Assembly (NCBI GenBank): GCA_902572735.1
Contig: CACGGX010000004.1
Location: 7,743 to 71,742 of the forward strand
Origin: an uncultured Alphaproteobacteria bacterium
Lineage (GTDB): Bacteria; Pseudomonadota; Alphaproteobacteria; HIMB59; GCA-002718135
Reading direction: 5' to 3'
DNA: 64,000 nt
Shown here: piece after piece, positions 18,085 to 35,923 of the stretch
Layout of the letters: every line of letters starts with the position of its first letter
Position numbering within the stretch: position 1 is the first letter of the stretch
Position numbers and translations under genes: made by a program
The notes under the pieces: model-generated
What the model was told of the DNA's origin: nothing
Databases searched by the model: none
The model's input: the letters and a program-made list of their open reading frames with translations, nothing else

Positions 18085-19326
18085 CTACATTAGATCTAAA
18101 AATGACTCAACTGGTATACTCCAATTTTGAGGTGAGTTTAGATTACAATATGGTTGACAATATTCAGATCCATCATCAAGTATATGACATTCTTCTGGTC
18201 CACCTAATATTTTACAACTTGAAGTAATGCCAATTAATTCTCCAGTCTTGGTATATAATCCTCCGCCTGAATTACCTTTATCAATTGGCGCATCAGTTTC
18301 TATATATTTCAAACCACTTTCTCTTAACCAAGGAGCACTTTCAACCATTCTAGGAGGAGGGTAATTATATTTCATTGTAATTTTACCTTCAGTAGGTTTT
18401 CCTACATATCCTCTAGGATTACCAACTGCATATACAGTATCATTAATATTAATATTATCGTAATAACCTAAATTTGGAAAAGAAATGTTGTTATCACTTC
18501 CAATATCTAAGATACATCTATCTGTTAATATATCTTCTTTTATTATTGGAACATTTCGCAACCATTGACTATTATTAGGGTCACCTGCATTTTCATTAAC
18601 TGGAATTAAATTAATAGATAAATCATCTTCATATCCATGCATTTCATAACATTGTTCTATATTTTCAAAACCAAATGCTGTTGACACTTCTTTTTCTGAA
18701 TAACCTTGATCAATAAAGTGCTCAATGTATTTACATTGATAATTAGTTACAACATGACAGTTTGTGAAAACAATACCATCGCCAATATGAACAGCTGAAC
18801 CACTACCTAATTGAAAATTATCTGATATTGTTGAAAGTTGTACATAAAATGTAGATGATTGTACCTCATCTAACAAATCTCTTACTAAATCTTTTGGCAT
18901 TTTTACTTCTATCGGAGGTGCATCCTCATCTTCATCTTTTCCTGTATCTTCTTGATTTTTTCTTAATACAGGAGGTTCAATAGTCTCAATCTCAATACCT
19001 AGTATTTTATTTACAGCTTTATAAATACATTCATTGTATTTTAGAGCTCCTAACTTTATTTCAAAAACACAAATATCTTCAATGTATTCCTGGTCTTCTT
19101 TATTTGATACTTGCTGCACACTCACAATACCTTGAGCTTCAAGAGCGCTTTTAATTGATTTTACACATTCATTTTTAGTTGAGTATTTCTTTTCTTTGAC
19201 TGATTTTTTACACTCAATATTTATAGCTTCTTTTAAATCAGCTGAATAATAAGCTGCTTCTATCTTCTCTGGTAAGAAAATTGAAGCAAATGATACTAGT
19301 ATAAGAATAGATATAAATTTACTCAT
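18085..19326 (-). CDS. Secreted trypsin-like (S1/PA clan) serine protease with a Cys-rich N-terminal domain
   Basis: 413 aa with a signal peptide (ILILVSFASIFL). The catalytic His context is GSAVHIGDGIVFTNCHVV and the catalytic Ser context is DKGNSGGGLYTKTGELIGITS. Transcribed divergently from the 19432 operon. Confidence 0.75.
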   Translation of the reverse strand: MSKFISILILVSFASIFLPEKIEAAYYSADLKEAINIECKKSVKEKKYSTKNECVKSIKSALEAQGIVSVQQVSNKEDQEYIEDICVFEIKLGALKYNECIYKAVNKILGIEIETIEPPVLRKNQEDTGKDEDEDAPPIEVKMPKDLVRDLLDEVQSSTFYVQLSTISDNFQLGSGSAVHIGDGIVFTNCHVVTNYQCKYIEHFIDQGYSEKEVSTAFGFENIEQCYEMHGYEDDLSINLIPVNENAGDPNNSQWLRNVPIIKEDILTDRCILDIGSDNNISFPNLGYYDNININDTVYAVGNPRGYVGKPTEGKITMKYNYPPPRMVESAPWLRESGLKYIETDAPIDKGNSGGGLYTKTGELIGITSSCKILGGPEECHILDDGSEYCQPYCNLNSPQNWSIPVESFLDLM

Positions 19327-19431: not shown

Positions 19432-20799
19432 ATGAGAATTTTCTTACTTTTATCTATGGTTTTTCTCTCTTTTTCACTTAAGGCTAATGAGTCTTGTGTT
19501 AAAGAAATTTTAGAAGAAAATAATTCCATTAATCTAGCTAAGAATGAGACATCAAGCTCTGAAAAAATTGGGGTAGCTAATTTATTTTATGATCATTCTC
19601 TAAACATGAAAGGTTTTATTAAGCCATCTAATTCACTATTTAAAAATTTCATTACTACCTTAAACTCAAAGATAGCTTTAGTAAGCAACGATCAAAAATT
19701 TTATAAATATACTTACGGTATTAAACCGTTAAATAATTCTGATGTAGGAAAAATTACATCATCAGAATCTTTTTACAAATGTCCTTTAGCAGCTGATCAA
19801 TGTCCTAAGCGAAGAGCTAAATTATCAAAAATATTAAAAGTGGTTGAGAAACAAGAAGACTCTCTAATAATTATTGTAACAGATTTATTTATTGGGATGG
19901 ATGAATTAATAGGCGATGGAATTAATGCAATTCGTAATCCTATAGCTGCTGCATTAGCAAGAGGAGACTCAATTGGCGTTTATGGAATAAAGAGTCAATA
20001 CGAAGGAACAATTACAGGAATATGTTCTGGCAATAATTATAATCTAGCAACTTCTAGACCATTTTATGTATTTACTATCGGTCCAAAAGAAAACGTACTC
20101 GCATTAAAAGAAATAATGGACAAAGATGTTATCTCAAAATTTGGAGAAGAAAATTTTAAATTTAATATTTATACAAATGATATTATTAAAACTCCTTTCA
20201 TTGAAAATTCTTGGCCGTCAAATACATTTGAAATTGGCGGTGGTATATCAACAGTTAATGTATTTGGAGAAGATTTAAAATTATATCAATTTAGTGTTGA
20301 TAAAAAAAGTGATCCTTTAAAAATTAAATTTGATCTTAATAATATTCAAACCCCGTACACTCTACCAGTTAAAGATTTATATGCTGAAGTTGATGTATAC
20401 GTTCAACGTAAAGACTCAGGCACTTGTTCTAATGATTGGCGATCATATGATCCTAATAAACAAAATGTAGTTTATTTTTCAGAACAAAATGGAACAAATG
20501 TATCATTTAATTTATTTGATAAATCTAAAAATGATCGAATAAGCCTTAAAAGAGATAAAAATTATATCTTTAATATTAAATATAGAGCGAAAGGTGTAGG
20601 TGTTACATCAAATGATTATTGGATGAATGAATGGAGTTTTGTTTGTGATGATATTGGAAAATATATTGAAAGTGGAACAACTTTCTTTCCAACATTAAAT
20701 TTAGCCGCTCTTGGATCAAACATGGAAGATGTGCAATCAGAAAACTTTGAGGATCAAGTTATTTCTCAAATGAACTTAGGATTTTATTTAGAGAGATAA
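19432..20799 (+). CDS. Operon gene 1: secreted protein with a degenerate vWA-like core (hypothetical)
   Basis: 455 aa with a signal peptide (MRIFLLLSMVFLSFSLKA). VANLFYDHSLNMKGF resembles a beta-strand plus a degraded MIDAS (DxSxS becomes DHSLN). SLIIIVTDLFIG resembles the vWA hhhhhTDG strand. Assignment is by eye only. Confidence 0.6.
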   Translation: MRIFLLLSMVFLSFSLKANESCVKEILEENNSINLAKNETSSSEKIGVANLFYDHSLNMKGFIKPSNSLFKNFITTLNSKIALVSNDQKFYKYTYGIKPLNNSDVGKITSSESFYKCPLAADQCPKRRAKLSKILKVVEKQEDSLIIIVTDLFIGMDELIGDGINAIRNPIAAALARGDSIGVYGIKSQYEGTITGICSGNNYNLATSRPFYVFTIGPKENVLALKEIMDKDVISKFGEENFKFNIYTNDIIKTPFIENSWPSNTFEIGGGISTVNVFGEDLKLYQFSVDKKSDPLKIKFDLNNIQTPYTLPVKDLYAEVDVYVQRKDSGTCSNDWRSYDPNKQNVVYFSEQNGTNVSFNLFDKSKNDRISLKRDKNYIFNIKYRAKGVGVTSNDYWMNEWSFVCDDIGKYIESGTTFFPTLNLAALGSNMEDVQSENFEDQVISQMNLGFYLER

Positions 20800-20800
20800 T

Positions 20801-21352
20801 ATGCGTCATATATTTTCATTAATTGTAATATCTATTTTCGTAGGACTAATAATTGTACCTGCTTATCTAGTTTCTTTTTTTGATATTGGATTTATTGGTC
20901 GTGGTGATGCAATACAAAATATTATTTTCTACATACTTGACCAAGATCCTAATATGCCAGGTGAAGAACGTGTCTGGAATGCAGAAGACTTACAATTATT
21001 AGGCATTCAACCTTTACTTATTTATTTAACAGCTTTCTGGTTTATTTTATTTATCGTGTGGATAATAATTACTGAATTTTTAAGAATTGATAGGCCTAAT
21101 AAAGCTTTTAAATTTATGTGGATTTGGTTTTTATTTTTAGCCGTTATGTTAGCTTTATCAGGATATATGACTTATTACTTTTTATATAGTCAAAAAGAAG
21201 TTTATCAATATGTAGGGGGACCACAAATAACTTCAATAATATTCTTAACAACAATTTTATCTTTAATTTTATTTTATTTGACAACATTGTTTATTACATC
21301 GAGAGTTAATAGACCAACCGTACCACTTGCTACAATTTTGATGAGGACATAA
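20801..21352 (+). CDS. Operon gene 2: 4-TM integral membrane protein (hypothetical)
   Basis: 183 aa with four hydrophobic helices (about aa 5-25, 70-92, 103-125, 142-165). Starts 1 nt after the gene 1 stop. Its stop overlaps the gene 3 start (TAATG). Confidence 0.65.
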   Translation: MRHIFSLIVISIFVGLIIVPAYLVSFFDIGFIGRGDAIQNIIFYILDQDPNMPGEERVWNAEDLQLLGIQPLLIYLTAFWFILFIVWIIITEFLRIDRPNKAFKFMWIWFLFLAVMLALSGYMTYYFLYSQKEVYQYVGGPQITSIIFLTTILSLILFYLTTLFITSRVNRPTVPLATILMRT

Positions 21353-22857
21353 TGGCTGATTGTTATTTTATAGGTATAGGTGGAACAGGAAGTAAATGTG
21401 TAAATAATTATGTTTATTCATCTGCTGCTGGTCTTGGTCCTGATCGGTTATGGATTGGAATGGTTGATCAAGATGATGCTAATGGTAATGTTGCTGAGTC
21501 CAGATCAAATATAGAAAATTATCAACGTGTAAGACGTATCCTTAGAACACCAGGACTTAGTGATATTAATGATAAAACAGATTTATTTAAAACGAATATT
21601 ACGACTCAAGTAGGTCAAACGTCTTGGTGTCCACTTCCAGGAACAGCACCAACGCTTAAAGATGTCTTCTCTTATGATTTACTTAATAAAGATTTACAAG
21701 ATACCATAGATTGTTTGTATCACCCTCAAGAAGAATTAAATTTAGAACTAGATGAAGGTTTCCGAGCAAGACCAAGTATAGGCGCTGCTGCAATTTTATC
21801 TCGTGTTCAAGAAAATGATCCTTTCTGGGTAAATATATTTAATGCCATTGACTCGGCTAAAGCTGGAACAGAAGTTCGTATCTTCCTTGTTAGTTCTATT
21901 TTTGGAGGAACTGGTGCATCTGGTTTTCCATCAATTGCTAGATTAATTCGATCTGAAATGGATAAAAGAGGTATCAGAGACGGTGTCCATTTGGGTGGCG
22001 CTCTCATGCTTCCTTATTTTAAATTTCCAAAACCAGGTGAAGATGAAATTAAAGAAGTGGCATATGCTGAAAGTTTCTTAGAGCAATCAAGAGGTGCTTT
22101 AGATTATTATCACCGCTTATTTGAAAAAGAACAACGTAAAACTTTTGATCAATTGTATTTAGTTGGTTGGGATCCATTAATTGAATTACCAGTTTTTGAG
22201 AAAGGTGGAAATCTACAACGTAATCCTGCTTTACTTCCAGAATTATTTACTTCTCTTGCGGCTTCACGTTTCTTTATGTCGAATTCAGTAGATAATGGCA
22301 TTTTCCATATAGCTAGAAACGATGCGAATGCCTTTTCATGGGATGATTTTCCTGAAATTAATGATCAACAAAAAATTGTAAAAGATAATTTATCACAAAT
22401 GACAAGAACTGCTCTTGCTTATAGAGAAATTTATTATCCTTACTTGGTAGATCAATGGCGAAAAGTAAAAAATGAAAGTTGGTTTCGAAATACATTATTA
22501 AAGCAAGGTGTAGATTTTAATAATGATGAAACATCATTAAATTTTAATAATCTTTTAGCATACTTTGAAAATTATTTAGACTGGCTTGCTAATATGATTC
22601 ACTTTAGTCAAAATGCTACAGTTCAAGGTATTGATCTTGTGGATGTAAACATGTTTTCACAATATGAAAATAGCCAAGTAACTATAAGTGATAAAGTTAG
22701 AGATCATCAACTAAAGCAATTCAATTCATTAATTAGTGGCGTTAATAGTAGCAGTCTTGCAAAAGTATTCTTAAAAATGAATTATTCTCGTGTTCCAAAA
22801 AATAGAACTGGTATTGGTGCCTTTGTCGGAGCTTTATATGAAAGTTGTAAGAGTTAG
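21352..22857 (+). CDS. Operon gene 3: tubulin/FtsZ-superfamily-like GTPase (divergent, Tubulin_2-like)
   Basis: 501 aa with no TM or signal peptide. The T1-loop-like motif is CYFIGIGGTGSKCV (nt 21373-21396). The T3-like motif is GFRARPSIGAAA, compared with FtsZ GAGANPEVGRKAA. The T4 signature is SSIFGGTGASGFPSIA (nt 21901-21924), compared with tubulin/FtsZ GGGTG[ST]G. A GAGGA Shine-Dalgarno sequence lies 5 nt upstream. Confidence 0.7.
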   Translation: MADCYFIGIGGTGSKCVNNYVYSSAAGLGPDRLWIGMVDQDDANGNVAESRSNIENYQRVRRILRTPGLSDINDKTDLFKTNITTQVGQTSWCPLPGTAPTLKDVFSYDLLNKDLQDTIDCLYHPQEELNLELDEGFRARPSIGAAAILSRVQENDPFWVNIFNAIDSAKAGTEVRIFLVSSIFGGTGASGFPSIARLIRSEMDKRGIRDGVHLGGALMLPYFKFPKPGEDEIKEVAYAESFLEQSRGALDYYHRLFEKEQRKTFDQLYLVGWDPLIELPVFEKGGNLQRNPALLPELFTSLAASRFFMSNSVDNGIFHIARNDANAFSWDDFPEINDQQKIVKDNLSQMTRTALAYREIYYPYLVDQWRKVKNESWFRNTLLKQGVDFNNDETSLNFNNLLAYFENYLDWLANMIHFSQNATVQGIDLVDVNMFSQYENSQVTISDKVRDHQLKQFNSLISGVNSSSLAKVFLKMNYSRVPKNRTGIGAFVGALYESCKS

Positions 22858-22859
22858 AT

Positions 22860-25800
22860 ATGGTTAAAAGTCTTCTCCCACCACTCAATGATGATCATGC
22901 AGTAGCTATCCCAAGTACGCATGGTAAATGGACGGTTGATGAAAATTCTATTCTCGGACGTATCGCTAATGGCTTAAAAGATATTACAATTGAACAAGAA
23001 GTAGAAGATCTTATTTCTATACCTGATGTTTGGGCAAGAGTTGCCGTAGTTAAAAATGCTCTCTTTGATGATAAACATCCATTAAATTATACTGTTAGAG
23101 GCGAGTGGAGAGGTTTACTGGCTCTTTTTGCTTTAATGCCGTATCACGGAAAAAATTTAGAAACAATTCCAGTAAACATTCAATCCTTAAAAAATAATCC
23201 CTATCAAGTTCCGCCAAACGAAGAGGGCGTACTTGGTAATTTTGCTGAAGTGTTAGCAACGATCACACCAGGGACTACTATTGCACAAGGTCAAAATTGG
23301 TCGGAGATTGGAATAATCAAACTTGGTGGTAAGCCAGTAGGTCTTTTAACGCCAAATACTATTGTTTCTCCTGCAAGATATTATTCAGAATCTATTCCAG
23401 GCGGCATTGATTGGTTTCAAACTGGTAAATTTATTGATCCATGTGAAGCAGCGAATATTCAACAGGAACAATTTTTAGTTCTTATACGTTTCCTTGATGA
23501 AATGATTACAGGACTTCAGCAAACAGCTATGGCTGATAAAATAAATTTTGATGGTATTTTAGGTGAACTTACAAGCTTTAAAGAAGATTGTCAAAAACGA
23601 ATTAGTTCTAGTCAATCTAGTGCGGTTGATATTTTAAACTATAAAAAATTTAATGTTGTTCTTCGTGTACCACAACAACCAATTTATACTTTATTACAAA
23701 ATATTTATGAAATAGATACCGGTGGTGTCGCTGCATTTGATACCTTAATTAAAGTTAGACCTGAACTTAATTCAGTTACCAATGGCATTATTTTAATTGA
23801 TGATGAAATACCAAGTGGTATCGGTAAAGCAGCATCAGATGTAAGATTATGGAATACTATTACAGTTGAAACATTAATTGGAGATAAACAAGCAAAAAAA
23901 CGTATCCAAAAAGAAGTATCAGATGCTGGTTATCTTTTCTTACATCCAGAAGAATTATTTACAGAAAAATTATGTTTACCTGCGAGCTCTGAAAAGATTA
24001 TGAATCATAATGATCTTTTAGCTAAACCGTATTTGTTACCTTTTAATCCAATTGTTTTATCTTTTATGACGGCATCGCAGTTAAGAAATAATTTTGATAT
24101 CAAAGATAATGGCACAAGTATTAATGTATCTCTTCGTTTAGAACTTCAAAATCATATGGGTCAAAAAACTGAATACGTAATTCGAAAAGAATATTTACAA
24201 GCAAATATAGAAAATAGACTTGAATTACCATTATCAGCTCATATTTGGCCTAACTTTGTGCATCCAGCATGGAATCAATATTTTATGATGTATGCATGTA
24301 ACTTGCAGGCATCAATTGCTCTTCGATCAGTATTTTCCATTCAAGGACTCTCAAAAGAATTGGATAATTTTGAAAGTTCGGATCAAAAAATTAAAGCTCT
24401 CAATCAATTAAAAGATTTTACTGTAAAAATGTCTAATAGGTTACCTTTACAAGAAACTACTAACGTTGTTGAATTACATTTGACTGAACATCCTCCAGAG
24501 GCGCTAGTTTGTGATGCAAGTATGATTATGGACCTGCATGAATTCATACCAAGTAATGAACGTTCTGCGATGGGAATTATTCTAGCTGGAAAACCAGAAG
24601 AGGTAATGGTTAACAATGATGCATTAAGTTTTGGAATAGATTTTGGTACAACAAATACCTGTGCTTATATGCGTGTTAATGAAGAAATTCCAAAAGAAAT
24701 AAATTTTGAGAATAGATTATATTCACCATTTTCACCAAGTGATGACAAAGAATATTTAAATTACCAATTACGAGAATTTGTTCCTGAAAGAAATGTAGTA
24801 TTACCTTTCCAAACAATTTCAAGAGATAGAAATCTAGGAAAGAAACAAGGAGATATTTCATTTCCTTTACCTTTATGGAGTGCCTTTATATATTACGTTG
24901 GTGACATGAGGGATGGTTTAGATGATATTTTAAACCCAGTTCAAAGACCGCTTCATTTCAATCTTAAATGGTCTAAAGCAGAAGCAGATAGAGAGCGAAT
25001 AGAAATTTATCTAGCTCAAGTTGCTCTACAATGTATCGCGGAGGGATTGGCTAGAGGAGCAGATTTAGATAAAATAAATTGGAGTTTTTCTTATCCTGAA
25101 GCTTTTACGCCAACTCAATTGCAAAATTTTAGACGTCTATTTAATAGTGGATTACGAAAAGCTTTACAGCCATTTAATAGCAATGGTAATTTAATTCAAA
25201 CAGAGCAAAAAAGTGAAAGTTTATCAAGTGCACTTTATTTTTCATCTTTTAAAAACGCTCCATTCACCGAAAGTGTTGTAACTATTGATATTGGCGGTGG
25301 AACTTCTGATATTTCTATTTGGCAAAATCTCAATTTATTATGGAGAAGTTCAGTAACAATAGCCGGTCAACATATTCTTATAAATTATTTAAATAAAAAT
25401 CCTAATTTAATAGAGTCTCTTTCATCAAATGATAGAGTAATGCAAGAAGCGTACGAACAGTTAACAAATATTAAATCTAAAGGAGACCCGACTGCCCTGA
25501 GGAATGCTATTGAAGTCATAGTAAATTCAAAAAATTTTGCTGAAGCAATTAATTCACGTTTCCATATTGTAGATGGTCAAGATAATGGAAGAAATTTAAG
25601 ACTTATAGCTGAATTAGCGCTAGCAGGGATTCTTTTTTATGCCGGTCAAATGGTTAATCATTTAACAAATCAAGGTTTATACGACCCAAGTAAAACAAAA
25701 CAATTTAGTATTTGTCTCGGTGGACGAGCAAGTCTTTTATATAAAGTATTATTTAGTGACTCAGAAGATCGAAATGGCTTATGTCGTTTATTTGCAGCAG

Positions 25801-26315
25801 CATCAAATAATACTGTTGATATTGATAAAGTTAACTTTGTATTCACTGATAAACCAAAACATGAAGTTGCTCATGGCTTGTTGGTAGATCAAAGAGGAAT
25901 AGCTAATTTAGATACTTCTAAGCGTTGTTATGATGTTTTATTAGGTGAAGATATTGATGTAGGTGGCGAAGTAACAAAATATAACCAATCAGCAAGTGAT
26001 TTAGATCTAGATAAGGAATGGCGCGCAATAAGCTTAACAAATATGAAGCAATTTGCAGAAATGTTGAACGCAAATACAGGAATAGTTTTTGAAGTATCAA
26101 GACAAGTTGAGAATATGATTGTATCTAAAATAAATACTAACCTTGTGACAGCTCAAGAAGAGTTACAAGATGCTAAAAAAGATGGTCTTGATTATTTATC
26201 AGATGATATGAAGGGAGAGACATCAATTATAGAACCTCCATTCATTGTAGCAATAAAAGAAATACTGGAAAGAGTTTCGAAAAAAGAAATCAATCTTCTA
26301 TCGAAAAAAATTTAA
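22860..26315 (+). CDS. Operon gene 4: 1151-aa protein with an unknown ~580-aa N-terminal region fused to an Hsp70/actin-fold (ASKHA) ATPase domain
   Basis: Ordered ASKHA motifs are present. Phosphate-1 is FGIDFGTTNTCAY (aa 591-603, nt 24630-24668), compared with DnaK GIDLGTTNS. Connect-1 is SESLSSALYF (aa 785-794), compared with NEPTAAALAY. Phosphate-2 is VVTIDIGGGTSDISIW (aa 806-821; DIGGGTSD core at nt 25287-25310), compared with DLGGGTFDVS. The adenosine motif is FSICLGGRASLL (aa 949-960), compared with LVGGSTRIP. Confidence 0.7.
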   Translation: MVKSLLPPLNDDHAVAIPSTHGKWTVDENSILGRIANGLKDITIEQEVEDLISIPDVWARVAVVKNALFDDKHPLNYTVRGEWRGLLALFALMPYHGKNLETIPVNIQSLKNNPYQVPPNEEGVLGNFAEVLATITPGTTIAQGQNWSEIGIIKLGGKPVGLLTPNTIVSPARYYSESIPGGIDWFQTGKFIDPCEAANIQQEQFLVLIRFLDEMITGLQQTAMADKINFDGILGELTSFKEDCQKRISSSQSSAVDILNYKKFNVVLRVPQQPIYTLLQNIYEIDTGGVAAFDTLIKVRPELNSVTNGIILIDDEIPSGIGKAASDVRLWNTITVETLIGDKQAKKRIQKEVSDAGYLFLHPEELFTEKLCLPASSEKIMNHNDLLAKPYLLPFNPIVLSFMTASQLRNNFDIKDNGTSINVSLRLELQNHMGQKTEYVIRKEYLQANIENRLELPLSAHIWPNFVHPAWNQYFMMYACNLQASIALRSVFSIQGLSKELDNFESSDQKIKALNQLKDFTVKMSNRLPLQETTNVVELHLTEHPPEALVCDASMIMDLHEFIPSNERSAMGIILAGKPEEVMVNNDALSFGIDFGTTNTCAYMRVNEEIPKEINFENRLYSPFSPSDDKEYLNYQLREFVPERNVVLPFQTISRDRNLGKKQGDISFPLPLWSAFIYYVGDMRDGLDDILNPVQRPLHFNLKWSKAEADRERIEIYLAQVALQCIAEGLARGADLDKINWSFSYPEAFTPTQLQNFRRLFNSGLRKALQPFNSNGNLIQTEQKSESLSSALYFSSFKNAPFTESVVTIDIGGGTSDISIWQNLNLLWRSSVTIAGQHILINYLNKNPNLIESLSSNDRVMQEAYEQLTNIKSKGDPTALRNAIEVIVNSKNFAEAINSRFHIVDGQDNGRNLRLIAELALAGILFYAGQMVNHLTNQGLYDPSKTKQFSICLGGRASLLYKVLFSDSEDRNGLCRLFAAASNNTVDIDKVNFVFTDKPKHEVAHGLLVDQRGIANLDTSKRCYDVLLGEDIDVGGEVTKYNQSASDLDLDKEWRAISLTNMKQFAEMLNANTGIVFEVSRQVENMIVSKINTNLVTAQEELQDAKKDGLDYLSDDMKGETSIIEPPFIVAIKEILERVSKKEINLLSKKI

Positions 26316-28610
26316 GTGATTAAAAAAATTATCTTTTTTTTAATATTAATAGTCTTTTCAAATAATTTATTTGCATCAGAACAGAAGAGTATACGTATAG
26401 ATGTACAAAAATTTAAATGCGATTATAGAGGAGAAATTCCTCCAGAAGAAATATTTCAAAGATTTAATATTATTACTGAAGCAGAAAAAGAGGCTAATAA
26501 AAACTATATTATTGCTGAATTAAAAAAAAATAATTCAGCTCATGAATTATTTTGTAATAATCAACCTATAGCAATAGAATTTAATTATTCAATATTAGAA
26601 AATCTTCCCGTACCTATCAAAAAAGATCTTCCTGTGCCAAAAAATGAAGAAAGTGAAAATAAACAACAGTCATTAATAATAAATAATGATGATCAAACAA
26701 ATGAAGATGATTTAGAAGAAAAGCCGTTAACTGAAGGAGAAAAGAAAAGGCAAGAAAAACAAAAACAGAAAGAAAAACAAATAAAAGATGAAGAGGAAAA
26801 ACTAGATAAAGGTAAAGTTGTTAAATCTTTTATTGAAAATCAAAAAGATAAAGATGAGAACAAAATATTATTTTCAACTTCTATTGAAGAACTATCTAAA
26901 AAATTTGCTCAATATAAAGAAAATTATGAGGAGAGTGACAACTTTAACAGAACTCAATTAGAAGCATTAAAGACTGATTTTCAATCTATTAAAAATATTA
27001 TTGCAAATAATTATATGGGTTTAATAAATACCTATGATCAAATTAAATTATTTTGTAATGAATTAGATGACTTCAAATTTAAAGAAAATAAATCTGGTGG
27101 AAAAGAATTAAAAAATAATTGTAAAACTATAACAGAAGATTGGACTTCGCTTAATTGGATTAAAGTTGGTAAGCAAAATTTTATTGATTATTTTAATTTA
27201 GAAATCTATCAAATTGATTCTGAAATTAAAATTTATATAGAAAATATAGTTAGCAAAATTGAGAATATTAAAAAAGCTGAAGAAAAAAGAAAAGAAGATG
27301 AAAGAAAAGCTGATGAAAAAAGAAAAGAAGATGAAAGAAAAGCTGAAGAAAAAAGGAAAGAAGAAGAAAGACAAAAAAAATTAAAAGAAGCTGAAGAAAA
27401 AAAGAAAAAAGAAGAAGCTGAAAAGAAAAAAGAAGCTGAACGTCAAAAGAAATTAGAACAAAAAAAGAAAGAAGAAGAAGAAAAGAAAAAAGAAGCTGAA
27501 CGTCAAAAGGAATTAAAACAAATAGAAAAAGATAAAAAAGATGAATATGAAAATATTATAGTATCAATTGAAAAAATTGAAATTCAAGAATTAAACGAAA
27601 ATTTTGAAAAATTAGCCGAAAGTTATGAAGAATTATCTAATAGAGATTCATTAAGTGTAAATATTGATAAAGATTTAGATAATCTTAATGAACAAAGAGC
27701 TGAATTAGTTAGCGATGGTATTTTTGAAACAATTAAAGAAGTTAAAGATAATATAAGTATAAATGAATTACTTGATGAAGATAAAAAAGAAGATCTTTTA
27801 GAAAATCTTAAAAATAATGTTGAAAGTAAAATAGAAAAAAGAAAAAAGGAAATTGATAATTATATTAAGATTATTGAAGGTAAAATTAATTCTCAAGATC
27901 AAGCATTTAGATCTAAAATTGATGAATTAGAAAATCGAAATACTCTTTATTTATTCATTATTATTGGAACTATAGTAATATTAGGTGGTGCTATAATTTA
28001 TTTAATTCTTCGAAGATCAAAAGATGATGTACCATCTCAAACATCATCCATACGTAATACGAGTATACTTCAGCAAGAAATTGATGAATTAAAACAAATT
28101 ATACGTAACAGTCAACAACAATCAAATGTTCAACAAACACCTAATGTTACACAACAACAACCTCAAGAAGAGGTAAGACAACCAACGGAACAAGAATTAT
28201 TTGCACAAAAATTAAATGATTTAGGGCATGATTATTTAGATGCAATTACAGATCCAAATAAAATAGAAGGATTTAAAGAAAAATGGCAAGCGATTGGACT
28301 AGATAGAGAAAGCCGAGTAGGGGCATCAACAGTTACTACTCTTAAAAAAGATAATAGACCGTTTGAGAGATGTAATTTCTGGGCTGTGCCAATTAGAAAT
28401 AACTATAGAATATTTGGTGGAAGAATATTAAGAACGAATTCTGTTGCTTTAACTGCAGATGATGGCCGTATGGCAAGAGATCTCTTAACGGGCATATTTG
28501 ATATTGAATACGGAACAAGCTTTCAAATACGACAGCAAGGTGTAGCTGTAATGAAAAATCAAATATTTGAGATTACTACTAAAGGTAAAATTACTATTCC
28601 GAAAACCTAA
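26316..28610 (+). CDS. Operon gene 5: bitopic envelope protein (signal peptide, extracytoplasmic domain, E/K/R-rich helical rod, TM, cytoplasmic C-terminal domain)
   Basis: 764 aa. The GTG start directly abuts the gene 4 stop and yields a proper signal peptide (MIKKIIFFLILIVFSNNLFA|SEQ). The ER/K block runs AEEKRKEDERKADEKRKEDERKAEEKRKEEERQKKLKEAEEKKKKEEAEKKKEAERQKKLEQKKKEEEEKKKEAERQKELKQ. The TM is LYLFIIIGTIVILGGAIIYLIL followed by RRSK (about nt 27945-28010). A Q-rich linker precedes a ~140-aa C-terminal domain homologous to that of gene 6. Confidence 0.7.
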   Translation: MIKKIIFFLILIVFSNNLFASEQKSIRIDVQKFKCDYRGEIPPEEIFQRFNIITEAEKEANKNYIIAELKKNNSAHELFCNNQPIAIEFNYSILENLPVPIKKDLPVPKNEESENKQQSLIINNDDQTNEDDLEEKPLTEGEKKRQEKQKQKEKQIKDEEEKLDKGKVVKSFIENQKDKDENKILFSTSIEELSKKFAQYKENYEESDNFNRTQLEALKTDFQSIKNIIANNYMGLINTYDQIKLFCNELDDFKFKENKSGGKELKNNCKTITEDWTSLNWIKVGKQNFIDYFNLEIYQIDSEIKIYIENIVSKIENIKKAEEKRKEDERKADEKRKEDERKAEEKRKEEERQKKLKEAEEKKKKEEAEKKKEAERQKKLEQKKKEEEEKKKEAERQKELKQIEKDKKDEYENIIVSIEKIEIQELNENFEKLAESYEELSNRDSLSVNIDKDLDNLNEQRAELVSDGIFETIKEVKDNISINELLDEDKKEDLLENLKNNVESKIEKRKKEIDNYIKIIEGKINSQDQAFRSKIDELENRNTLYLFIIIGTIVILGGAIIYLILRRSKDDVPSQTSSIRNTSILQQEIDELKQIIRNSQQQSNVQQTPNVTQQQPQEEVRQPTEQELFAQKLNDLGHDYLDAITDPNKIEGFKEKWQAIGLDRESRVGASTVTTLKKDNRPFERCNFWAVPIRNNYRIFGGRILRTNSVALTADDGRMARDLLTGIFDIEYGTSFQIRQQGVAVMKNQIFEITTKGKITIPKT
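27276..27374 (+). repeat. In-frame 33-nt tandem repeat x3 inside gene 5
   Basis: The units are 27276-27308, 27309-27341 and 27342-27374. Each follows gctgaagaaaaaagaaaagaagatgaaagaaaa with a few substitutions. They encode AEEKRKEDERK / ADEKRKEDERK / AEEKRKEEERQ. Confidence 0.85.
27421..27509 (+). repeat. Direct repeat: two identical 29-nt copies spaced 60 nt apart, inside gene 5
   Basis: aaaagaaaaaagaagctgaacgtcaaaag occurs at 27421-27449 and again at 27481-27509, encoding KKKEAERQK both times. Confidence 0.85.
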
Positions 28611-30790
28611 TGTTAAAAAAAAATATTTATTTTATTTTAATAGTTATTTTTTTAATTAGTAAAAATTTATTTGCCTATAACATTCCAAATAAAAAAAACT
28701 CTTCTATTATTGATCGATTTTTTAAAGATGGTGAATATGTCCTTATAGAAGATGAAAAATTTATTCCTTTCTTAGATTTACTTAATACTAAGAATCTAAA
28801 ATTATTAGAATCATTTCCATATAAAATTTATATAAAACTAGAAGAAGAAAGATATGATTATAAAGTTGCTTATTTTTTTAATAACTATGATGACTTATCA
28901 CTTAATTATATAAGAGTTCATTGGGCGCCAACTATTGGAAATAATAAATATAACTATTCTTTTGATTGTATCAAACCAAATAAAAATGATGTTTGTAATG
29001 GTTTTAATAATCCAATTAAAGGTGAGCAAGATTTAAAAATTCTTGATAAAGTATTTTTTAAAGGTAATTATTATTCTATACCATATAAAGATATAGAAGA
29101 TAATAAATACTGTCTTTTTTCAAGAAAATATAAGCTTACAGCAAATAATGAGAAGGTTAATTACACTATTGATTATTGGACATGTTCTAATAACATAAAT
29201 TCTAAAAATATATCTAATGCAGTTCATTTTGAGCTACTTAATTCAATTAAAATTGACAACAACATAACAATTAAACAAATTAATGAACTTGTTCCATATG
29301 TTATTGATAATGTAAAAAAAGGAATAAATAATAAAAATAAAGCTGAAGAGAAAAAAAAGAAAGAGGAAGAAGCTAAAAAGAAAGCTGAAGAGAGAAAAAA
29401 GAAAGAGGAAGAAGCTAAAAAGTTAGCTGAAGAGGAAAAAAAGGAAGCTGAACGTCAAAAAAAATTAGAAGAAAAAAAGAAAGAACTTGAAAAGAAAAGA
29501 AAAGAAGAGGAAGAAAAAAGAAGAATTGAAGAAGAATTAAAAAGACAAGCAGAAGAAAAGAAAAGAAAACAGGAAGAAGAAAGAAAAAAAAGAGAAGCTG
29601 AAGAAAAAAGAAAAAAAGAATTACAAAAAAATATTCAAGATTCTAAATCAGCATTATCAGCTTCTAAAGCTAATCAAAATAAATTAATTACAGAAACAAA
29701 AAATTTAGAATTACAATTAAGAGAAATCAAATCAGCAAATACAATAAATAAGATTAATATAGTTAAACAAAAAACTGATAATATATATGATAATATACAA
29801 TCTAACCTAAAATCATTTAATACGAAGTATAAAAAAGTAGAAAAACTATTCAAAAATAATCCTGAAACAGAATTAAATTTAATCTTTAATGAATTTAAAT
29901 TATTAAATACACAGTTTAAAAATCAAAGAAAAGTAATAGAAGAATTATACTCTGATATTGAAAACAATTATTTATCTAAAAAATCTAAATTTGAAAAAGA
30001 ATTAAGAGATAAAGAATTAACTGATGCCTTTATGCGTTCAGATCAAGCTTATATATATACCTATGTGCCAATCGGAGTAGCCATTGTACTATTATTAATA
30101 CTTATCTGGAGATGGAACTCATCAGGAAGACAAATTGCTTATTTGAATAATAAAATAAGAGATCTAGAAAAAAATAACGAGAAATCAAGTTCACCAACAA
30201 CTCAGGTATCGAAGTCTTTTGATAAAATTGAGAAACAAGAGGAAACTATCACTACATCTATAAAAACTCCTGAAAAAAGTAATATTAATGAAGAAGAAGA
30301 AGAAGAAGAAGAAGTAGAAAATAAAAATATAGAAGAGCCGATAAGCAATGAAATCAAAAAATTGAATAACTTGATTGATGATAAAACGTTTATGGATAAA
30401 TATCAAAATGCTGTTAGTGATTTAAATAGCTTAAGATCTTTTACGGACGAATTTAAAGTTAAAGGTTTAGAAAGGTTTTCATCACAAAGAGTAGAAGAGG
30501 GCGTTGAATTAGAAATCAGTCAGCGTATTGTTGATAAAGCGATGTTCTGGTTAATTGAACACCCGCAAACATTTGAATTACTAATATTACCTGGAAGAGA
30601 TTTATGGTCCCGATCTCGCTTATTATTACAAGATACAAGTCGCTTTGGTTATTTAAACTTTAATGGTATTTTTGATTTATCAGAAGGTGAAGAATTTAAA
30701 TTAACAAATTTTGCTATCGTATCAGTGACAGATAAGAAAAAATATAAAATTGAACAAAAAGGAGAATTAATACTTCCTAAATCTAATTAG
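28610..30790 (+). CDS. Operon gene 6: paralog of gene 5 (signal peptide, extracytoplasmic domain, E/K/R helical rod, TM, poly-Glu linker, shared cytoplasmic C-terminal domain)
   Basis: 726 aa. The ATG overlaps the gene 5 stop (TAATG). The signal peptide is MLKKNIYFILIVIFLISKNLFA|YN. The ER/K block runs KAEEKKKKEEEAKKKAEERKKKEEEAKKLAEEEKKEAERQKKLEEKKKELEKKRKEEEEKRRIEEELKRQAEEKKRKQEEERKKREAEEKRKKELQ. The TM is YVPIGVAIVLLLILIW followed by RW (about nt 30044-30109). The C-terminal domain aligns with gene 5: FW......GR.L...S..L..D..R.....GIFD...G..F......KG...PK. Confidence 0.7.
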   Translation: MLKKNIYFILIVIFLISKNLFAYNIPNKKNSSIIDRFFKDGEYVLIEDEKFIPFLDLLNTKNLKLLESFPYKIYIKLEEERYDYKVAYFFNNYDDLSLNYIRVHWAPTIGNNKYNYSFDCIKPNKNDVCNGFNNPIKGEQDLKILDKVFFKGNYYSIPYKDIEDNKYCLFSRKYKLTANNEKVNYTIDYWTCSNNINSKNISNAVHFELLNSIKIDNNITIKQINELVPYVIDNVKKGINNKNKAEEKKKKEEEAKKKAEERKKKEEEAKKLAEEEKKEAERQKKLEEKKKELEKKRKEEEEKRRIEEELKRQAEEKKRKQEEERKKREAEEKRKKELQKNIQDSKSALSASKANQNKLITETKNLELQLREIKSANTINKINIVKQKTDNIYDNIQSNLKSFNTKYKKVEKLFKNNPETELNLIFNEFKLLNTQFKNQRKVIEELYSDIENNYLSKKSKFEKELRDKELTDAFMRSDQAYIYTYVPIGVAIVLLLILIWRWNSSGRQIAYLNNKIRDLEKNNEKSSSPTTQVSKSFDKIEKQEETITTSIKTPEKSNINEEEEEEEEVENKNIEEPISNEIKKLNNLIDDKTFMDKYQNAVSDLNSLRSFTDEFKVKGLERFSSQRVEEGVELEISQRIVDKAMFWLIEHPQTFELLILPGRDLWSRSRLLLQDTSRFGYLNFNGIFDLSEGEEFKLTNFAIVSVTDKKKYKIEQKGELILPKSN
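29342..29425 (+). repeat. In-frame 42-nt tandem repeat x2 (plus a diverged third start) inside gene 6
   Basis: Unit 29342-29383 is gctgaagagaaaaaaaagaaagaggaagaagctaaaaagaaa. Unit 29384-29425 is gctgaagagagaaaaaagaaagaggaagaagctaaaaagtta. They differ at only 3 positions and encode AEEKKKKEEEAKKK / AEERKKKEEEAKKL. Confidence 0.85.
30290..30313 (+). repeat. (GAA)8 trinucleotide microsatellite inside gene 6 (poly-Glu linker)
   Basis: Eight consecutive gaa codons encode EEEEEEEE, between the TM segment and the C-terminal domain. Confidence 0.9.
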
Positions 30791-35773: not shown

Positions 35774-35880
35774 AATATATAGTATTTTTTTACACGTGAA
35801 AATCCTATATTTTGTATGTGAATATATTTAACGTTAGATTTATAAAATATATTACTGATTTATATATATTATATTTATGC

Positions 35881-35914
35881 TTGACTATTATTTACGATAA
35901 CTGTAATTATCGTA
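35881..35914 (+). promoter_or_regulatory. Promoter-like region with a 9-bp inverted repeat immediately upstream of the integrase gene
   Basis: TTGACT at 35881-35886 is -35-like. The inverted repeat is TTACGATAA (35892-35900), a 5-nt spacer, then TTATCGTAA (35906-35914). It ends 9 nt before the ATG at 35924 and overlaps the expected -10 / transcription start region. Confidence 0.35.
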
Positions 35915-35923
35915 ATATATAAT

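What the first reader, a model, noticed from the sequence alone, without database searches (positions are those of the whole stretch)
26316..30790. Paralogous pair of bitopic proteins with extracytoplasmic ER/K helical rods and a shared novel cytoplasmic domain
Genes 5 and 6 share the same architecture but have diverged strongly outside the rod and the C-terminus. Each has:
- a cleavable-looking signal peptide ending NLFA;
- a different ~250-300-aa outer domain;
- about 90-110 aa of nearly pure E/K/R/A sequence, the composition of stable single alpha-helices (ER/K motif) or TolA-like rods;
- further coiled coil;
- one TM followed by basic residues, placing the C-terminus in the cytoplasm;
- a low-complexity linker, Q-rich in gene 5 and E8 in gene 6;
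- a clearly homologous ~140-aa C-terminal domain.

For the C-terminal domain, gene 5 reads ...CNFWAVPIRNNYRIFGGRILRTNSVALTADDGRMARDLLTGIFDIEYGTSFQIRQ...TKGKITIPKT. Gene 6 reads ...AMFWLIEHPQTFELLILPGRDLWSRSRLLLQDTSRFGYLNFNGIFDLSEGEEFKLTN...QKGELILPKSN.

A ~100-residue single helix would be about 15 nm long, comparable to periplasm width.

The shared cytoplasmic domain is the obvious candidate docking site for the tubulin-like and Hsp70-like proteins.
Basis: partly seen in the sequence, partly recalled or inferred. Interest (0 to 1): 0.7.

Follow-up and report, generated by a model that had tools for sequence, protein, structure and literature searches.

The report
Two membrane adaptors with periplasmic rods
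Two adjacent genes of an uncultured marine alphaproteobacterium encode single-pass membrane proteins with a fast-evolving head on a stiff charged helix in the periplasm and a conserved, undescribed domain in the cytoplasm, which probably couples the envelope to the uncharacterised tubulin-like and actin/Hsp70-like proteins encoded just upstream.

Summary

- **Architecture.** Genes 5 (26316-28610) and 6 (28610-30790) share a signal peptide, a variable Cys-bearing head, a 100-110-aa E/K/R tract, a further helical stretch, one TM, a low-complexity linker and a ~140-aa C-terminal domain (CTD).
- **Paralogy.** The CTDs are homologous (BLASTP E 1e-14; Smith-Waterman 130 against 28±5 for shuffles).
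- **ER/K tracts.** They carry a single-alpha-helix charge pattern and are built from DNA tandem repeats.
- **Topology.** N-out/C-in is supported across the family. K+R is enriched after the TM (p 2e-10, n=78), and 31 of 33 long forms have an even number of ectodomain cysteines.
- **Novelty of the CTD.** It has no Pfam, NCBIfam or PDB match by sequence or fold, although the model is confident (pLDDT 90). It defines a family of ~140 clusters, almost always TM-linker-CTD.
- **Linkage.** Nine of 10 sampled members lie in or next to the same secreted-protein/4-TM/tubulin-like/ASKHA operon, with one to five paralogs per locus. Cyanobacterial plasmid versions are homologous (HHalign 95.6%).
- **Divergence.** Between strains the tails are 92-100% identical and the heads 22-37%.

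Best reading: ZipA/RodZ-like adaptors that couple an envelope-facing variable head to the cytoplasmic tubulin/ASKHA pair. Binding itself is inferred, not shown.

The parts
26316..28610 (+). gene 5, 764 aa: type-I bitopic membrane protein (g5-type CTD protein)
   Evidence: ORF. The GTG start abuts the stop of the upstream gene.
26316..26375 (+). gene 5 signal peptide (aa 1-20, MIKKIIFFLILIVFSNNLFA|S)
   Evidence: Basic, hydrophobic and cleavage regions read. Hydrophobic segment. The -L-[FY]-A motif recurs in other secreted proteins of the window (30783-31970, 32036-33499).
26376..27245 (+). gene 5 distal ectodomain (aa 21-310), 4 Cys, fast-evolving
   Evidence: Cys at 35, 80, 247 and 269. Where aligned to P0018 (from aa 241), this part and the rest of the non-ER/K periplasmic region are 22-30% identical, against 92-98% for the tail.
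27246..27551 (+). gene 5 ER/K tract (aa 311-412), single-alpha-helix-like
   Evidence: Composition. Tandem repeats. Charge periodicity.
27552..27953 (+). gene 5 membrane-proximal helical region (aa 413-546)
   Evidence: About 30% hydrophobic residues, almost no G/P, patchy heptad signal.
27954..28010 (+). gene 5 transmembrane segment (aa 547-565), followed by RRSK
28011..28193 (+). gene 5 cytoplasmic juxtamembrane helix and Q/P-rich linker (aa 566-626)
   Evidence: Sequence.
28194..28607 (+). gene 5 C-terminal domain (CTD, aa 627-764)
   Evidence: Homology. AF2 pLDDT 90.2. Family search.
28610..30790 (+). gene 6, 726 aa: type-I bitopic membrane protein (g6-type CTD protein)
   Evidence: ORF. 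TAATG overlap with gene 5.
28610..28675 (+). gene 6 signal peptide (aa 1-22, ...SKNLFA|Y)
   Evidence: The -3/-1 small residues and +1 Tyr are conserved in orthologs P0019, P0028, P0031 and P0041.
28676..29311 (+). gene 6 distal ectodomain (aa 23-234), 4 Cys, g6-type head
   Evidence: Alignment A7/A8 with invariant C146 and C170. 22-37% identical to P0019. The AF2 model is poor (pLDDT 50).
29312..29647 (+). gene 6 ER/K tract (aa 235-346), single-alpha-helix-like
   Evidence: Sub-threshold TolA domain-II match: TIGR02794, E 9.8e-8, 31.6 bits against a cut-off of 59.45.
29648..30052 (+). gene 6 membrane-proximal helical region (aa 347-481)
30053..30109 (+). gene 6 transmembrane segment (aa 482-500)
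30110..30349 (+). gene 6 cytoplasmic linker including the E8 run (GAA x10 at 30290-30319)
30350..30787 (+). gene 6 C-terminal domain (CTD, aa 581-726)
21352..22857 (+). gene 3, tubulin/FtsZ-like GTPase (501 aa), putative partner
   Evidence: PF13809 Tubulin_2, E 7.4e-9, 35.8 bits against a cut-off of 27. Conserved C-terminal motif G[LI]GxFxxxL[YF]xxC.
22860..26315 (+). gene 4, 1151-aa protein with a C-terminal ASKHA (actin/Hsp70-fold) ATPase, putative partner
   Evidence: Weak MreB, EutA and Hsc70 matches around aa 759-897.
19432..20799 (+). gene 1, secreted 455-aa protein of the operon
   Evidence: Conserved synteny. No family match.
20801..21352 (+). gene 2, 183-aa multi-TM protein of the operon
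18085..19326 (-). divergent HtrA/trypsin-like periplasmic protease, recurrent neighbour of the operon
   Evidence: TIGR02037, E 3e-16. The same neighbour is seen.
17230..18072 (-). GYF_2-like + DUF805 membrane protein. Orthologs elsewhere carry a CTD between the two domains.
   Evidence: Pfam. P0048 and locus L046.

Best explanation
Genes 5 and 6 encode type-I bitopic inner-membrane adaptors of a six-gene operon: secreted protein, 4-TM protein, tubulin-like GTPase, giant ASKHA ATPase, gene 5, gene 6.

**Shown**
- After signal-peptide cleavage the N-terminal ~520 aa (gene 5) or ~460 aa (gene 6) lie in the periplasm.
- This part consists of a disulfide-bearing, fast-evolving head, a ~90-110-aa ER/K single-alpha-helix-like rod (~13-15 nm) and ~140 aa of further helix down to the membrane.
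- The C-terminal ~200-225 aa lie in the cytoplasm: a short juxtamembrane helix, a low-complexity linker and a conserved ~140-aa alpha/beta domain (CTD) with no known relative.
- The CTD family is nearly always TM-linker-CTD.
- It is genetically locked to the tubulin-like/ASKHA gene pair.

**Inferred**
- The CTD is the cytoplasmic tether or recruitment site for the tubulin-like GTPase and/or the ASKHA protein. One candidate contact is the conserved C-terminal peptide of the GTPase. The logic is that of ZipA (TM, charged/PQ linker, globular FtsZ-binding domain) and RodZ.
- The rod holds an interchangeable head near the peptidoglycan or outer membrane.
- The heads are hypervariable while the tails are near-invariant, and loci carry one to five paralogs with different heads. 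I therefore favour outside-in coupling: the heads bind envelope or foreign ligands, or are cut by the conserved neighbouring HtrA-like protease. Clustering or release of the CTDs then changes the assembly of the cytoplasmic polymer.
- The direction of coupling is the least certain step.
For: - **Paralogy:**
- **Topology:** (positive-inside p 1.7e-10; even Cys number in 31 of 33 ectodomains), plus the architectures.
- **Rod:**. Length is plastic through tandem repeats. High-GC relatives carry A/K/E-rich repeats at the same position (P0020, P0021, P0031, P0065), so the tract is not merely an AT-bias product.
- **CTD:** confident fold (pLDDT 90.2, pTM 0.84). 141 representative clusters at E<=1e-3, 87 at E<=1e-10.
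- **Linkage from the ASKHA side:** every locus with >=34% identity and downstream sequence has a CTD gene directly after it (L002, L003, L004, L008, L009, L011-L014). L010 is the exception, where the ORF is truncated.
- **Linkage from the CTD side:** 9 of 10 sampled members lie in or beside the operon, across GC 26-67%.
- **Paralog arrays:** five CTD ORFs in L053.
- **Cyanobacterial plasmids:** the loci keep the operon, and their post-ASKHA proteins carry a homologous domain (HHalign 95.6%, E 1.3e-8).
- **Mosaic divergence:** tails 92-100% identical, heads 22-37%.
- **Tight coupling of all six genes:** junctions of -1 to +2 nt and no terminator-like site inside the operon on the + strand.
- **Conserved C-terminal motif of the tubulin-like protein:**
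Against: - No interaction between the CTD and gene 3 or gene 4 was tested. The tools give no complex prediction.
- One CTD family member (P0113, L047/L048) lies in an unrelated neighbourhood, so the domain is not exclusive to this operon.
- In the most distant tubulin/ASKHA loci (Bacteroidota-like and others) the gene after the ASKHA gene has the same layout, but its C-terminal domain is not demonstrably homologous (HHalign 3.9% and 7.6%; no bridging).
- No fold match to ZipA or any other tether.
- SignalP and DeepTMHMM were not run.
- Cleavage of the signal peptide, helicity of the ER/K tract and expression of genes 5 and 6 are unverified. Metatranscriptome contigs cover only parts of genes 1-4.
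- A periplasmic head cannot easily be reached by external ligands, so the hypervariability may have another cause.
Confidence: 0.5

Rival explanations
1. Structural envelope strut or ruler (inside-out). Genes 5 and 6 are TolA-like periplasm-spanning rods. Their job is mechanical: to set or hold the distance between inner membrane and peptidoglycan or outer membrane, or to be positioned or moved by the cytoplasmic filament. This would resemble MreB-RodZ positioning of wall synthesis. No sensing is involved.
For: - ER/K and A/K/E-rich helical tracts resemble TolA domain II (TIGR02794 sub-threshold match; high-GC relatives).
- Rod length is tuned by tandem repeats.
- The membrane-proximal helical parts have nearly equal length in both paralogs: 134 and 135 aa by the part boundaries drawn.
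- Distant versions of the operon carry MotB_plug/OmpA-like peptidoglycan-binding proteins.
- The operon is kept in a ~1.26-Mb streamlined genome (L004).
Against: - A purely structural head would not be expected to diverge to 22-37% identity while the tail stays 92-100% identical.
- It would also not be expected to multiply to five different heads per locus.
- Minimal family members have no periplasmic part at all, yet sit in the same operon (L003, L052).
- The system is patchily distributed and plasmid-borne in cyanobacteria.
Confidence: 0.2
2. Protease-gated anchors (RseA/DegS logic). The CTD sequesters the tubulin-like or ASKHA protein, or another factor, at the membrane. The conserved neighbouring HtrA/trypsin-like periplasmic protease cuts the rod or head on a signal. 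This starts degradation of the anchor and releases the cytoplasmic partner.
For: An HtrA/trypsin-like secreted protease is a recurrent neighbour. It is found in the window at 18085-19326, in L002, L046, the P0059 locus and in distant loci. The bitopic layout, with a cytoplasmic binding domain and an exposed periplasmic part, fits.
Against: No site-2 protease or adaptor is seen in the operon. No cleavage motif was identified. RseA has the opposite orientation. The reading rests on neighbourhood alone.
Confidence: 0.12
3. No functional link. Genes 5 and 6 are ordinary low-complexity coiled-coil envelope proteins of an AT-rich genome that merely lie downstream. The E/K tracts are slippage products of AAR/GAR codons without a specific role.
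For: The genes have 24-25% GC. The E/K tracts are tandem DNA repeats. Such tracts recruit many unrelated metagenome contigs. One CTD protein stands outside the operon.
Against: - Gene order is conserved from 26% to 67% GC and into cyanobacteria.
- Start and stop codons overlap.
- The CTD is under strong purifying selection.
- The charge periodicity is non-random.
- High-GC relatives keep a charged helical tract.
Confidence: 0.06

Closest known systems
ZipA (membrane tether of FtsZ in Gammaproteobacteria)
   Same: The cytoplasmic half has the same order: TM, basic/charged stretch, P/Q-rich flexible linker, ~140-aa globular alpha/beta C-terminal domain. It is encoded next to a tubulin/FtsZ-superfamily GTPase that carries a conserved C-terminal peptide. 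The minimal family members (N-terminal TM, linker, CTD; 200-290 aa) look like ZipA in outline.
   Different: There is no sequence or fold similarity to ZipA_C. The long forms add a signal peptide and a 450-520-aa periplasmic part that ZipA lacks. The partner is a Tubulin_2-type protein, not FtsZ. Binding is untested.
TolA (and TonB) periplasm-spanning proteins
   Same: A long charged alpha-helical tract rich in K, E and A lies between an inner-membrane anchor and a distal globular domain in the periplasm. TIGR02794 gives a sub-threshold match to domain II.
   Different: TolA is anchored by an N-terminal TM with no cytoplasmic domain and works with TolQR. Here the TM is C-terminal to the rod (type I, cleaved leader) and a large cytoplasmic tail follows. 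No TolA domain III is present. In the distant loci the MotB_plug and OmpA matches are below Pfam's own cut-offs, and the large multi-TM protein has no MotA match.
RodZ (bitopic linker between MreB and the periplasm)
   Same: A single-pass protein links a cytoplasmic cytoskeletal ATPase of the actin fold to a periplasmic domain.
   Different: RodZ has the opposite orientation (N-in HTH domain binds MreB). Pfam finds no family at all in gene 5 or gene 6, so no homology is detected.
ER/K single alpha-helix (SAH) domains, e.g. of myosin VI/X and caldesmon
   Same: About 75-85% E/K/R, at most 9% hydrophobic residues, no G/P, and opposite charges enriched at i+3 and i+4 and depleted at i+7.
   Different: To my knowledge, known SAH domains are cytoplasmic and mostly eukaryotic. 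Here the tract is predicted to be periplasmic. Its helicity has not been measured.
FtsZl1/Tubulin_2 operons predicted to remodel membranes (Makarova and Koonin 2010, PMC2875224)
   Same: A Tubulin_2-type GTPase (PF13809 hit) lies in an operon rich in secreted and membrane proteins. OmpA-like partners occur in distant versions.
   Different: FtsZl1 proteins are ~900-1100 aa with coiled coils, and their hallmark partners are vWA proteins and a P-loop GTPase. Here the GTPase is 501 aa and is always followed by a ~1150-aa ASKHA protein and CTD proteins. No vWA domain was detected in gene 1. FtsZl2 proteins were reported to have no conserved neighbours.
RseA-DegS regulated proteolysis
   Same: A bitopic protein with a cytoplasmic binding domain and a periplasmic part lies next to an HtrA-family protease.
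   Different: The orientation is opposite. There is no sigma factor and no homology. Only the logic is similar.

Membership tests
Sec/SPase-I secreted N-terminus (cleavable signal peptide) | Basic n-region, 7-15-residue hydrophobic core, small or neutral residues at -3 and -1 | tested here: met
   MIKK/IIFFLILIVF/SNNLFA|S and MLKKN/IYFILIVIFLI/SKNLFA|Y. In the g6-type orthologs shown, -1 is A, G or S and -3 is L, V, A or I, with a conserved +1 Tyr in four of them. This was judged by inspection only; SignalP was not available.
Type-I bitopic topology (N-out, C-in) | Positive-inside bias at the single TM and an oxidising-compartment signature in the N-terminal part | tested here: met
   K+R is 3.40 after the TM against 1.90 before it; C-side larger, equal or smaller in 60, 13 and 5 of 78; p 1.7e-10. 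Ectodomain Cys number is even and non-zero in 31 of 33. No experimental fusion was made.
ER/K single alpha-helix (SAH) | E/K/R-dominated tract of at least ~60 aa with almost no hydrophobic seam | tested here: met
   102 and 112 aa; up to 85% E/K/R in 40-aa windows, about 72-74% over the whole tracts; hydrophobic 8-9%; G+P 0 or 1.
ER/K single alpha-helix (SAH) | Opposite charges spaced i+3/i+4 (helix-stabilising salt bridges) | tested here: met
   z 6.8 and 2.6 (gene 5) and 6.3 and 6.9 (gene 6) at i+3 and i+4. Depletion at i+7 (z -2.0 and -5.8).
ER/K single alpha-helix (SAH) | Stable monomeric helix in solution | not testable with these tools
   Needs circular dichroism or SAXS of the isolated tract.
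TolA | Full-length match to TolA (N-terminal anchor, domain II, C-terminal domain III) | tested here: not met
   TIGR02794 matches only the ER/K tract: 31.6 and 15.1 bits against a cut-off of 59.45. The TM lies C-terminal to the rod. Pfam finds no family at all, so no TolA C-terminal domain.
ZipA | ZipA_C FtsZ-binding domain (sequence or fold) | tested here: not met
ZipA | Order TM, charged/PQ linker, C-terminal globular domain in the cytoplasm | tested here: met
   Gene 5 aa 547-764 and gene 6 aa 482-726. Minimal forms.
ZipA | Binds the C-terminal peptide of its tubulin-family partner | not testable with these tools
   Only a lead: a conserved C-terminal motif in gene 3 homologs.
CTD family (defined here) | ~140-aa domain with the conserved FW..., [PG]GR, ADDGR/SRFG, GIF and G..L.LP motifs, C-terminal to a TM and a linker | tested here: met
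   Both proteins seed the profile (A2, A3). 141 representatives at E<=1e-3. Architecture tally.
FtsZl1-vWA membrane-remodelling operon (Makarova and Koonin 2010) | Tubulin_2-type GTPase | tested here: met
   PF13809, E 7.4e-9, 35.8 bits against 27.
FtsZl1-vWA membrane-remodelling operon (Makarova and Koonin 2010) | vWA-domain partner and/or diverged P-loop GTPase; large (~1000 aa) FtsZl1 with coiled coil | tested here: not met
   No vWA or P-loop family in genes 1-6. Gene 3 is 501 aa. Descriptions of the family.
DO-GTPase/GAP1 conflict systems with tubulin or Hsp70 (Kaur et al. 2020, PMC7159879) | Paired DO-GTPases plus GAP1 and FNIII components | tested here: not met
   None of these is in the operon by Pfam or NCBIfam. 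Description.
Known anti-phage defence systems (PADLOC-DB 2.0) | Any component matching a defence-system model | tested here: not met
   No hit for genes 1-6 at E<=0.1.

The most novel reading that the evidence does not exclude
The operon encodes a previously undescribed envelope-spanning cytoskeletal signalling machine. Interchangeable, rapidly diversifying periplasmic heads sit on single-alpha-helix rods, which would be the first periplasmic SAH domains. The heads report envelope events, such as phage or predator attack or wall damage, through a new cytoplasmic domain. That domain nucleates or releases a tubulin-like/actin-fold co-polymer. The same three-part logic (tubulin-like GTPase, giant ASKHA protein, bitopic protein with a C-terminal beta-rich domain) extends from streamlined marine Alphaproteobacteria to cyanobacterial plasmids, and perhaps to Bacteroidota of the gut.
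Probability: 0.3. Interest if true: 0.85.

Novelty: new variant of a known kind. Interest (0 to 1): 0.68.

Why it matters
- **A missing link for the operon.** The tubulin-like/ASKHA gene pair is widespread. It occurs in marine metagenomes, cyanobacterial plasmids and gut metagenomes. All its partners are annotated 'hypothetical', and I found no paper on it. The CTD proteins supply the missing membrane link and a concrete hypothesis: a ZipA-like tether with an envelope-facing variable head.
- **A testable system.** It can be tested in genetically tractable carriers such as Picosynechococcus.
- **A new domain family.** The CTD is a confidently folding domain without sequence or structural relatives. 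It is a clean candidate for a new curated family.
- **A new setting for SAH domains.** A periplasmic ER/K single helix would extend these domains to a new compartment. It would also offer a natural, repeat-tunable molecular spacer.
- **An unusual divergence pattern.** Identical tails with unrelated heads between close strains of an abundant ocean bacterium point to strong diversifying pressure on a periplasmic protein. That pressure itself needs an explanation.

Tried and rejected
1. **Word-index protein search.** With the gene 5 CTD and with the wide alignment A3 it returned only 2-3 close hits. The closer 5-sequence alignment A1 gave 16. The exhaustive profile search was needed.
2. **The search for related loci with the CTD alignment.** The ASKHA alignment was used instead.
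3. **Homology of the CTD to the distant C-terminal domain.** This concerns the post-ASKHA proteins of the distant (Bacteroidota-like) loci. It is not supported: HHalign 3.9% and 7.6%, and six rounds of iterated HMM search did not bridge. I treat these proteins as positional analogues only.
4. **Structure of the gene 6 head.** With 6 sequences the model has pLDDT 50, too poor for a fold search.
5. **vWA idea for gene 1.** The motifs D-x-S-x-N and hhhhTD were seen by eye. Neither Pfam nor a profile search of PDB sequences supports it, so it is dropped.
6. **'MotA-like' label.** I considered it for the large multi-TM protein of distant loci. There is no Pfam support, so I do not use it. The MotB_plug, OmpA and trypsin matches stand.
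7. **Filing under known systems.** DO-GTPase conflict systems, FtsZl1/FtsZl2 operons and PADLOC defence systems were all considered. Their defining components are absent.
8. **Population variation from metagenome contigs.** It was uninformative because the AAG/GAA repeats recruit unrelated contigs.
9. **Expression.** Metatranscriptome contigs match parts of genes 1-4 at 95-100% identity. They match genes 5 and 6 only through low-complexity stretches, so there is no specific evidence, and DNA carry-over cannot be excluded.
10. **Phage or plasmid origin.** There is no ASKHA homolog in the phage collection. The single gene 5 CTD finds nothing in the plasmid collection by tblastn. Only the profile comparison does.

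Full report
**Source and setting.** The window is identical to a contig of an uncultured marine alphaproteobacterial single-cell genome (AG-891-K19). Its GC content is about 28%. It encodes a MacAB-type tripartite efflux system, so a two-membrane envelope is expected.

Six genes on the + strand are packed with junctions of -1 to +2 nt:
- gene 1, 19432-20799, secreted, 455 aa;
- gene 2, 20801-21352, multi-TM, 183 aa;
- gene 3, 21352-22857, 501 aa, Tubulin_2 (PF13809, E 7e-9, above the Pfam cut-off);
- gene 4, 22860-26315, 1151 aa, whose C-terminal half has weak MreB, EutA and Hsc70 matches, i.e. an ASKHA ATPase;
- gene 5, 26316-28610;
- gene 6, 28610-30790.

A simple scan finds no terminator-like site inside the operon on the + strand.

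**Checking the observation.**
- Both proteins start with a Sec-type leader ending NLFA.
- Each has exactly one further hydrophobic segment (aa 547-565 and 482-500), followed by basic residues.
- The E/K/R tracts span aa 311-412 and 235-346. K+E+R reach up to 85% in 40-aa windows, hydrophobic residues are 8-9%, and G/P are essentially absent.
- The charge pattern is not random. Opposite charges are enriched at i+3 and i+4 (z up to 6.9) and depleted at i+1 and i+7. This is the signature of ER/K single alpha-helices and is incompatible with a hydrophobic-seam coiled coil.
- At the DNA level the tracts are recent imperfect tandem repeats of 33, 60 and 42 nt, so rod length is evolutionarily plastic.
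- The ~135 residues between each tract and the TM have about 30-36% hydrophobic residues, almost no G/P and a patchy heptad signal. They are helical and possibly coiled-coil.
- The C-terminal ~140 aa are homologous: BLASTP E 1e-14, Smith-Waterman 130 against 28±5 in shuffles.
- The heads show no similarity to each other.

**Topology.** Dedicated predictors were not available, so I used the family. A profile of the C-terminal domain (CTD) found 141 representative clusters at E<=1e-3 among 1.84 billion proteins. In these the layout is almost always an optional leader and variable ectodomain, then one TM, then a linker (median 62 aa from the TM to the start of the profile match), then the CTD at the very C-terminus.
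- Over 78 members with complete flanks, the 15 residues after the TM hold 3.40 K+R against 1.90 before it. The C-side is larger in 60, equal in 13 and smaller in 5 (Wilcoxon p 1.7e-10).
- In 33 long forms the part between leader and TM has an even, non-zero number of cysteines in 31. Gene 5 and gene 6 have 4 each. The tails have 0-3 cysteines without parity. This is what periplasmic disulfide bonding predicts.
- Minimal members consist only of an N-terminal TM, linker and CTD (for example the Oceanicaulis ortholog, L003 15355-16233; L052).
- Another class has a leaderless GYF-like domain, the CTD and then a DUF805 membrane domain (P0040, P0048, P0058, P0112).

All of this puts the CTD in the cytoplasm and the rods and heads outside.

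**The CTD.** With only 13 sequences AlphaFold2 gives a confident model (pLDDT 90.2, pTM 0.84). It has two N-terminal helices, four strands, a helical segment and five more strands. No relative was found:
- Foldseek against the PDB: best E 0.44, TM<=0.22;
- Foldseek against viral models: best E 0.16;
- a profile search of PDB sequences: nothing;
- Pfam, NCBIfam and PADLOC: nothing.

Conserved positions include the FW motif, a [PG]GR turn, an ADDGR (g5-type) or DTSRFGY (g6-type) stretch, GIF, and a terminal G..L.LP.

**Linkage to the tubulin-like/ASKHA pair.** From the ASKHA side, a metagenome scan gave 39 loci.
- Wherever the ASKHA protein is at least 34% identical and downstream DNA is present, a CTD gene follows immediately: L002, L003, L004, L008, L009, L011-L014.
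- L010 has a truncated ORF of the same type.

From the CTD side, 9 of 10 sampled, diverse members lie directly after the ASKHA gene or beside the operon, in genomes of 26-67% GC: P0003, P0047, P0048, P0059, P0065, P0077, P0097, P0129 and P0133. For P0065 the assignment is provisional, because only a 619-aa partial upstream gene with no DNA was available. One member (P0113) stands alone between housekeeping genes.

Copy number varies. There is one copy in many loci, two here and in the related L002/L004 lineage, and five in tandem in L053. Gene 5 groups with the first and gene 6 with the second CTD protein of L004 (40% and 33% identity). The pair is therefore an old duplication that has been kept.

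Cyanobacterial plasmids (Synechococcus NIES-970, Gloeothece PCC 7822, Picosynechococcus) carry the same four upstream genes. All are annotated hypothetical except a 'tubulin-like' label. They are followed by two or three leader/TM or TM2 proteins, whose C-terminal domains are homologous to the CTD core (HHalign 95.6%, E 1.3e-8, 75 columns).

In the most distant loci (ASKHA identity at most 28%, including gut metagenomes) the next gene again encodes a leader or lipoprotein signal, a TM and a ~110-aa beta-rich C-terminal domain. Homology to the CTD is not demonstrable there. These loci add weak, below-cut-off MotB_plug and OmpA matches, plus clear trypsin-like and retropepsin-like proteins.

**Pattern of divergence.**
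- Against its closest database relative (P0019), gene 6 is 92-100% identical in the cytoplasmic part, 60-88% in the membrane-proximal rod and 22-37% in the head.
- Gene 5 against P0018 is 92-98% identical in the tail and 22-30% in the non-repeat periplasmic part.
- The g6-type head is nevertheless a recognisable family with invariant cysteines. Its structure could not be modelled (pLDDT 50).

So the outward-facing part is either under diversifying selection or swapped by recombination, while the tail is frozen.

**Mechanism.**

Shown:
- a type-I bitopic layout;
- an SAH-like rod of about 13-15 nm (0.15 nm per residue), plus about 135 further helical residues (up to ~34-37 nm if continuous);
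- a new, conserved cytoplasmic domain;
- strict operon linkage with a tubulin-superfamily GTPase and an ASKHA ATPase.

Inferred:
- The CTD tethers or recruits that pair at the membrane. The cytoplasmic half copies the order of ZipA (TM, charged/PQ linker, globular FtsZ-binding domain).
- Gene 3 homologs end in a conserved motif, G[LI]GxFxxxL[YF]xxC, after a variable stretch. This is reminiscent of the FtsZ C-terminal peptide.
- Because the heads are variable and multiplied, I favour outside-in coupling, i.e. sensing. The conserved HtrA-like neighbour (18085-19326) is a possible processing enzyme.
- A purely structural TolA-like strut is the main rival.

None of this was tested by interaction data.

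**Comparison with the literature.**
- The FtsZl1/FtsZl2 families of Makarova and Koonin (PMC2875224) share the Tubulin_2 relationship, but they differ in protein size and in their hallmark partners (vWA, P-loop GTPase).
- The DO-GTPase systems of Kaur et al. (PMC7159879) use tubulin or Hsp70 with other core components.
- Five full-text searches gave no description of this operon or of the CTD.

I therefore rate the finding as a new variant of a known kind: a membrane tether or trans-envelope rod for a cytoskeletal NTPase. It is built on a domain with no known relatives and sits inside an uncharacterised, widespread operon.

Noticed in passing
window 17230-18072 (-): A 280-aa protein with a GYF_2-like N-terminal domain (E 2e-4, below cut-off), an acidic low-complexity linker and DUF805 (E 1e-30). 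In other lineages the protein at the same position (after the protease, divergent from gene 1) carries a CTD between the two domains (P0048/L046; also P0040, P0058, P0112). Here the CTD is missing.
   Followed up: partly
window 18085-19326 (-): A secreted HtrA/trypsin-like serine protease with a Cys-rich N-terminal part, divergent from gene 1. A protease of this type recurs beside the operon in L002, L046, the P0059 locus and the distant loci (L037).
   Followed up: partly
window 22797-22857 (C-terminus of gene 3): Gene 3 homologs end in a conserved motif G[LI]GxFxxxL[YF]xxC after a poorly conserved stretch (12 sequences). It could be a partner-binding tail like the FtsZ C-terminal peptide, or an amphipathic membrane helix.
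   Followed up: partly
window 30783-31970 (-): A convergent gene overlaps the end of gene 6 by 8 nt. It encodes a leader (…GNLYA|F), a coiled coil, a weak SH3_3 match (E 1e-4) and a weak Glucodextran_B-like domain. SH3_3-type proteins (weak or faint hits) also lie near the operon in L004 and L053.
   Followed up: no
window 32036-33499 (+): A secreted transglutaminase-core protein (PF01841, E 5e-18) with the same -LYA leader ending lies next to the cluster.
   Followed up: no
window 35039-36982: A Sir2-family protein (35039-35773, -) lies beside a tyrosine recombinase (35924-36982, +), about 5 kb downstream of the operon. No tRNA gene was found in the window. Whether the operon lies in a mobile or hypervariable island was not resolved.
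   Followed up: no
L053 132-8426: Five consecutive ORFs with a CTD follow a remnant of the ASKHA gene. The first ORF joins ~100 aa of ASKHA sequence to a TM and a CTD, through deletion, fusion or mis-assembly.
   Followed up: partly
L021, L023, L024, L033, L034, L037, L039, L045 (downstream of the ASKHA gene): Distant tubulin/ASKHA loci share a conserved gene string. It consists of a bitopic protein ending ...G.A....W.V..KA.I.F (two paralogs in L033), a 520-620-aa multi-TM coiled-coil protein, one or two MotB_plug/OmpA-like proteins (weak, below-cut-off matches) and a trypsin-like or retropepsin-like protease.
   Followed up: partly
L054 13362-14618; L056 11705-12952: In cyanobacterial plasmids one post-ASKHA protein has an N-terminal TM2 domain and two tandem CTD-like domains. 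This is a different way of anchoring the same domain.
   Followed up: partly
L010 8431-9930: The ORF after the ASKHA gene has the leader typical of the 'AFHK' subgroup but stops at 500 aa without a CTD, whereas its relative P0090 has 706 aa. This is probably a frameshift or an assembly error.
   Followed up: no
window 19486-25460: Short contigs from seawater metatranscriptomes match parts of genes 1-4 at 95-100% identity. This hints at expression in situ, although DNA carry-over cannot be excluded.
   Followed up: partly
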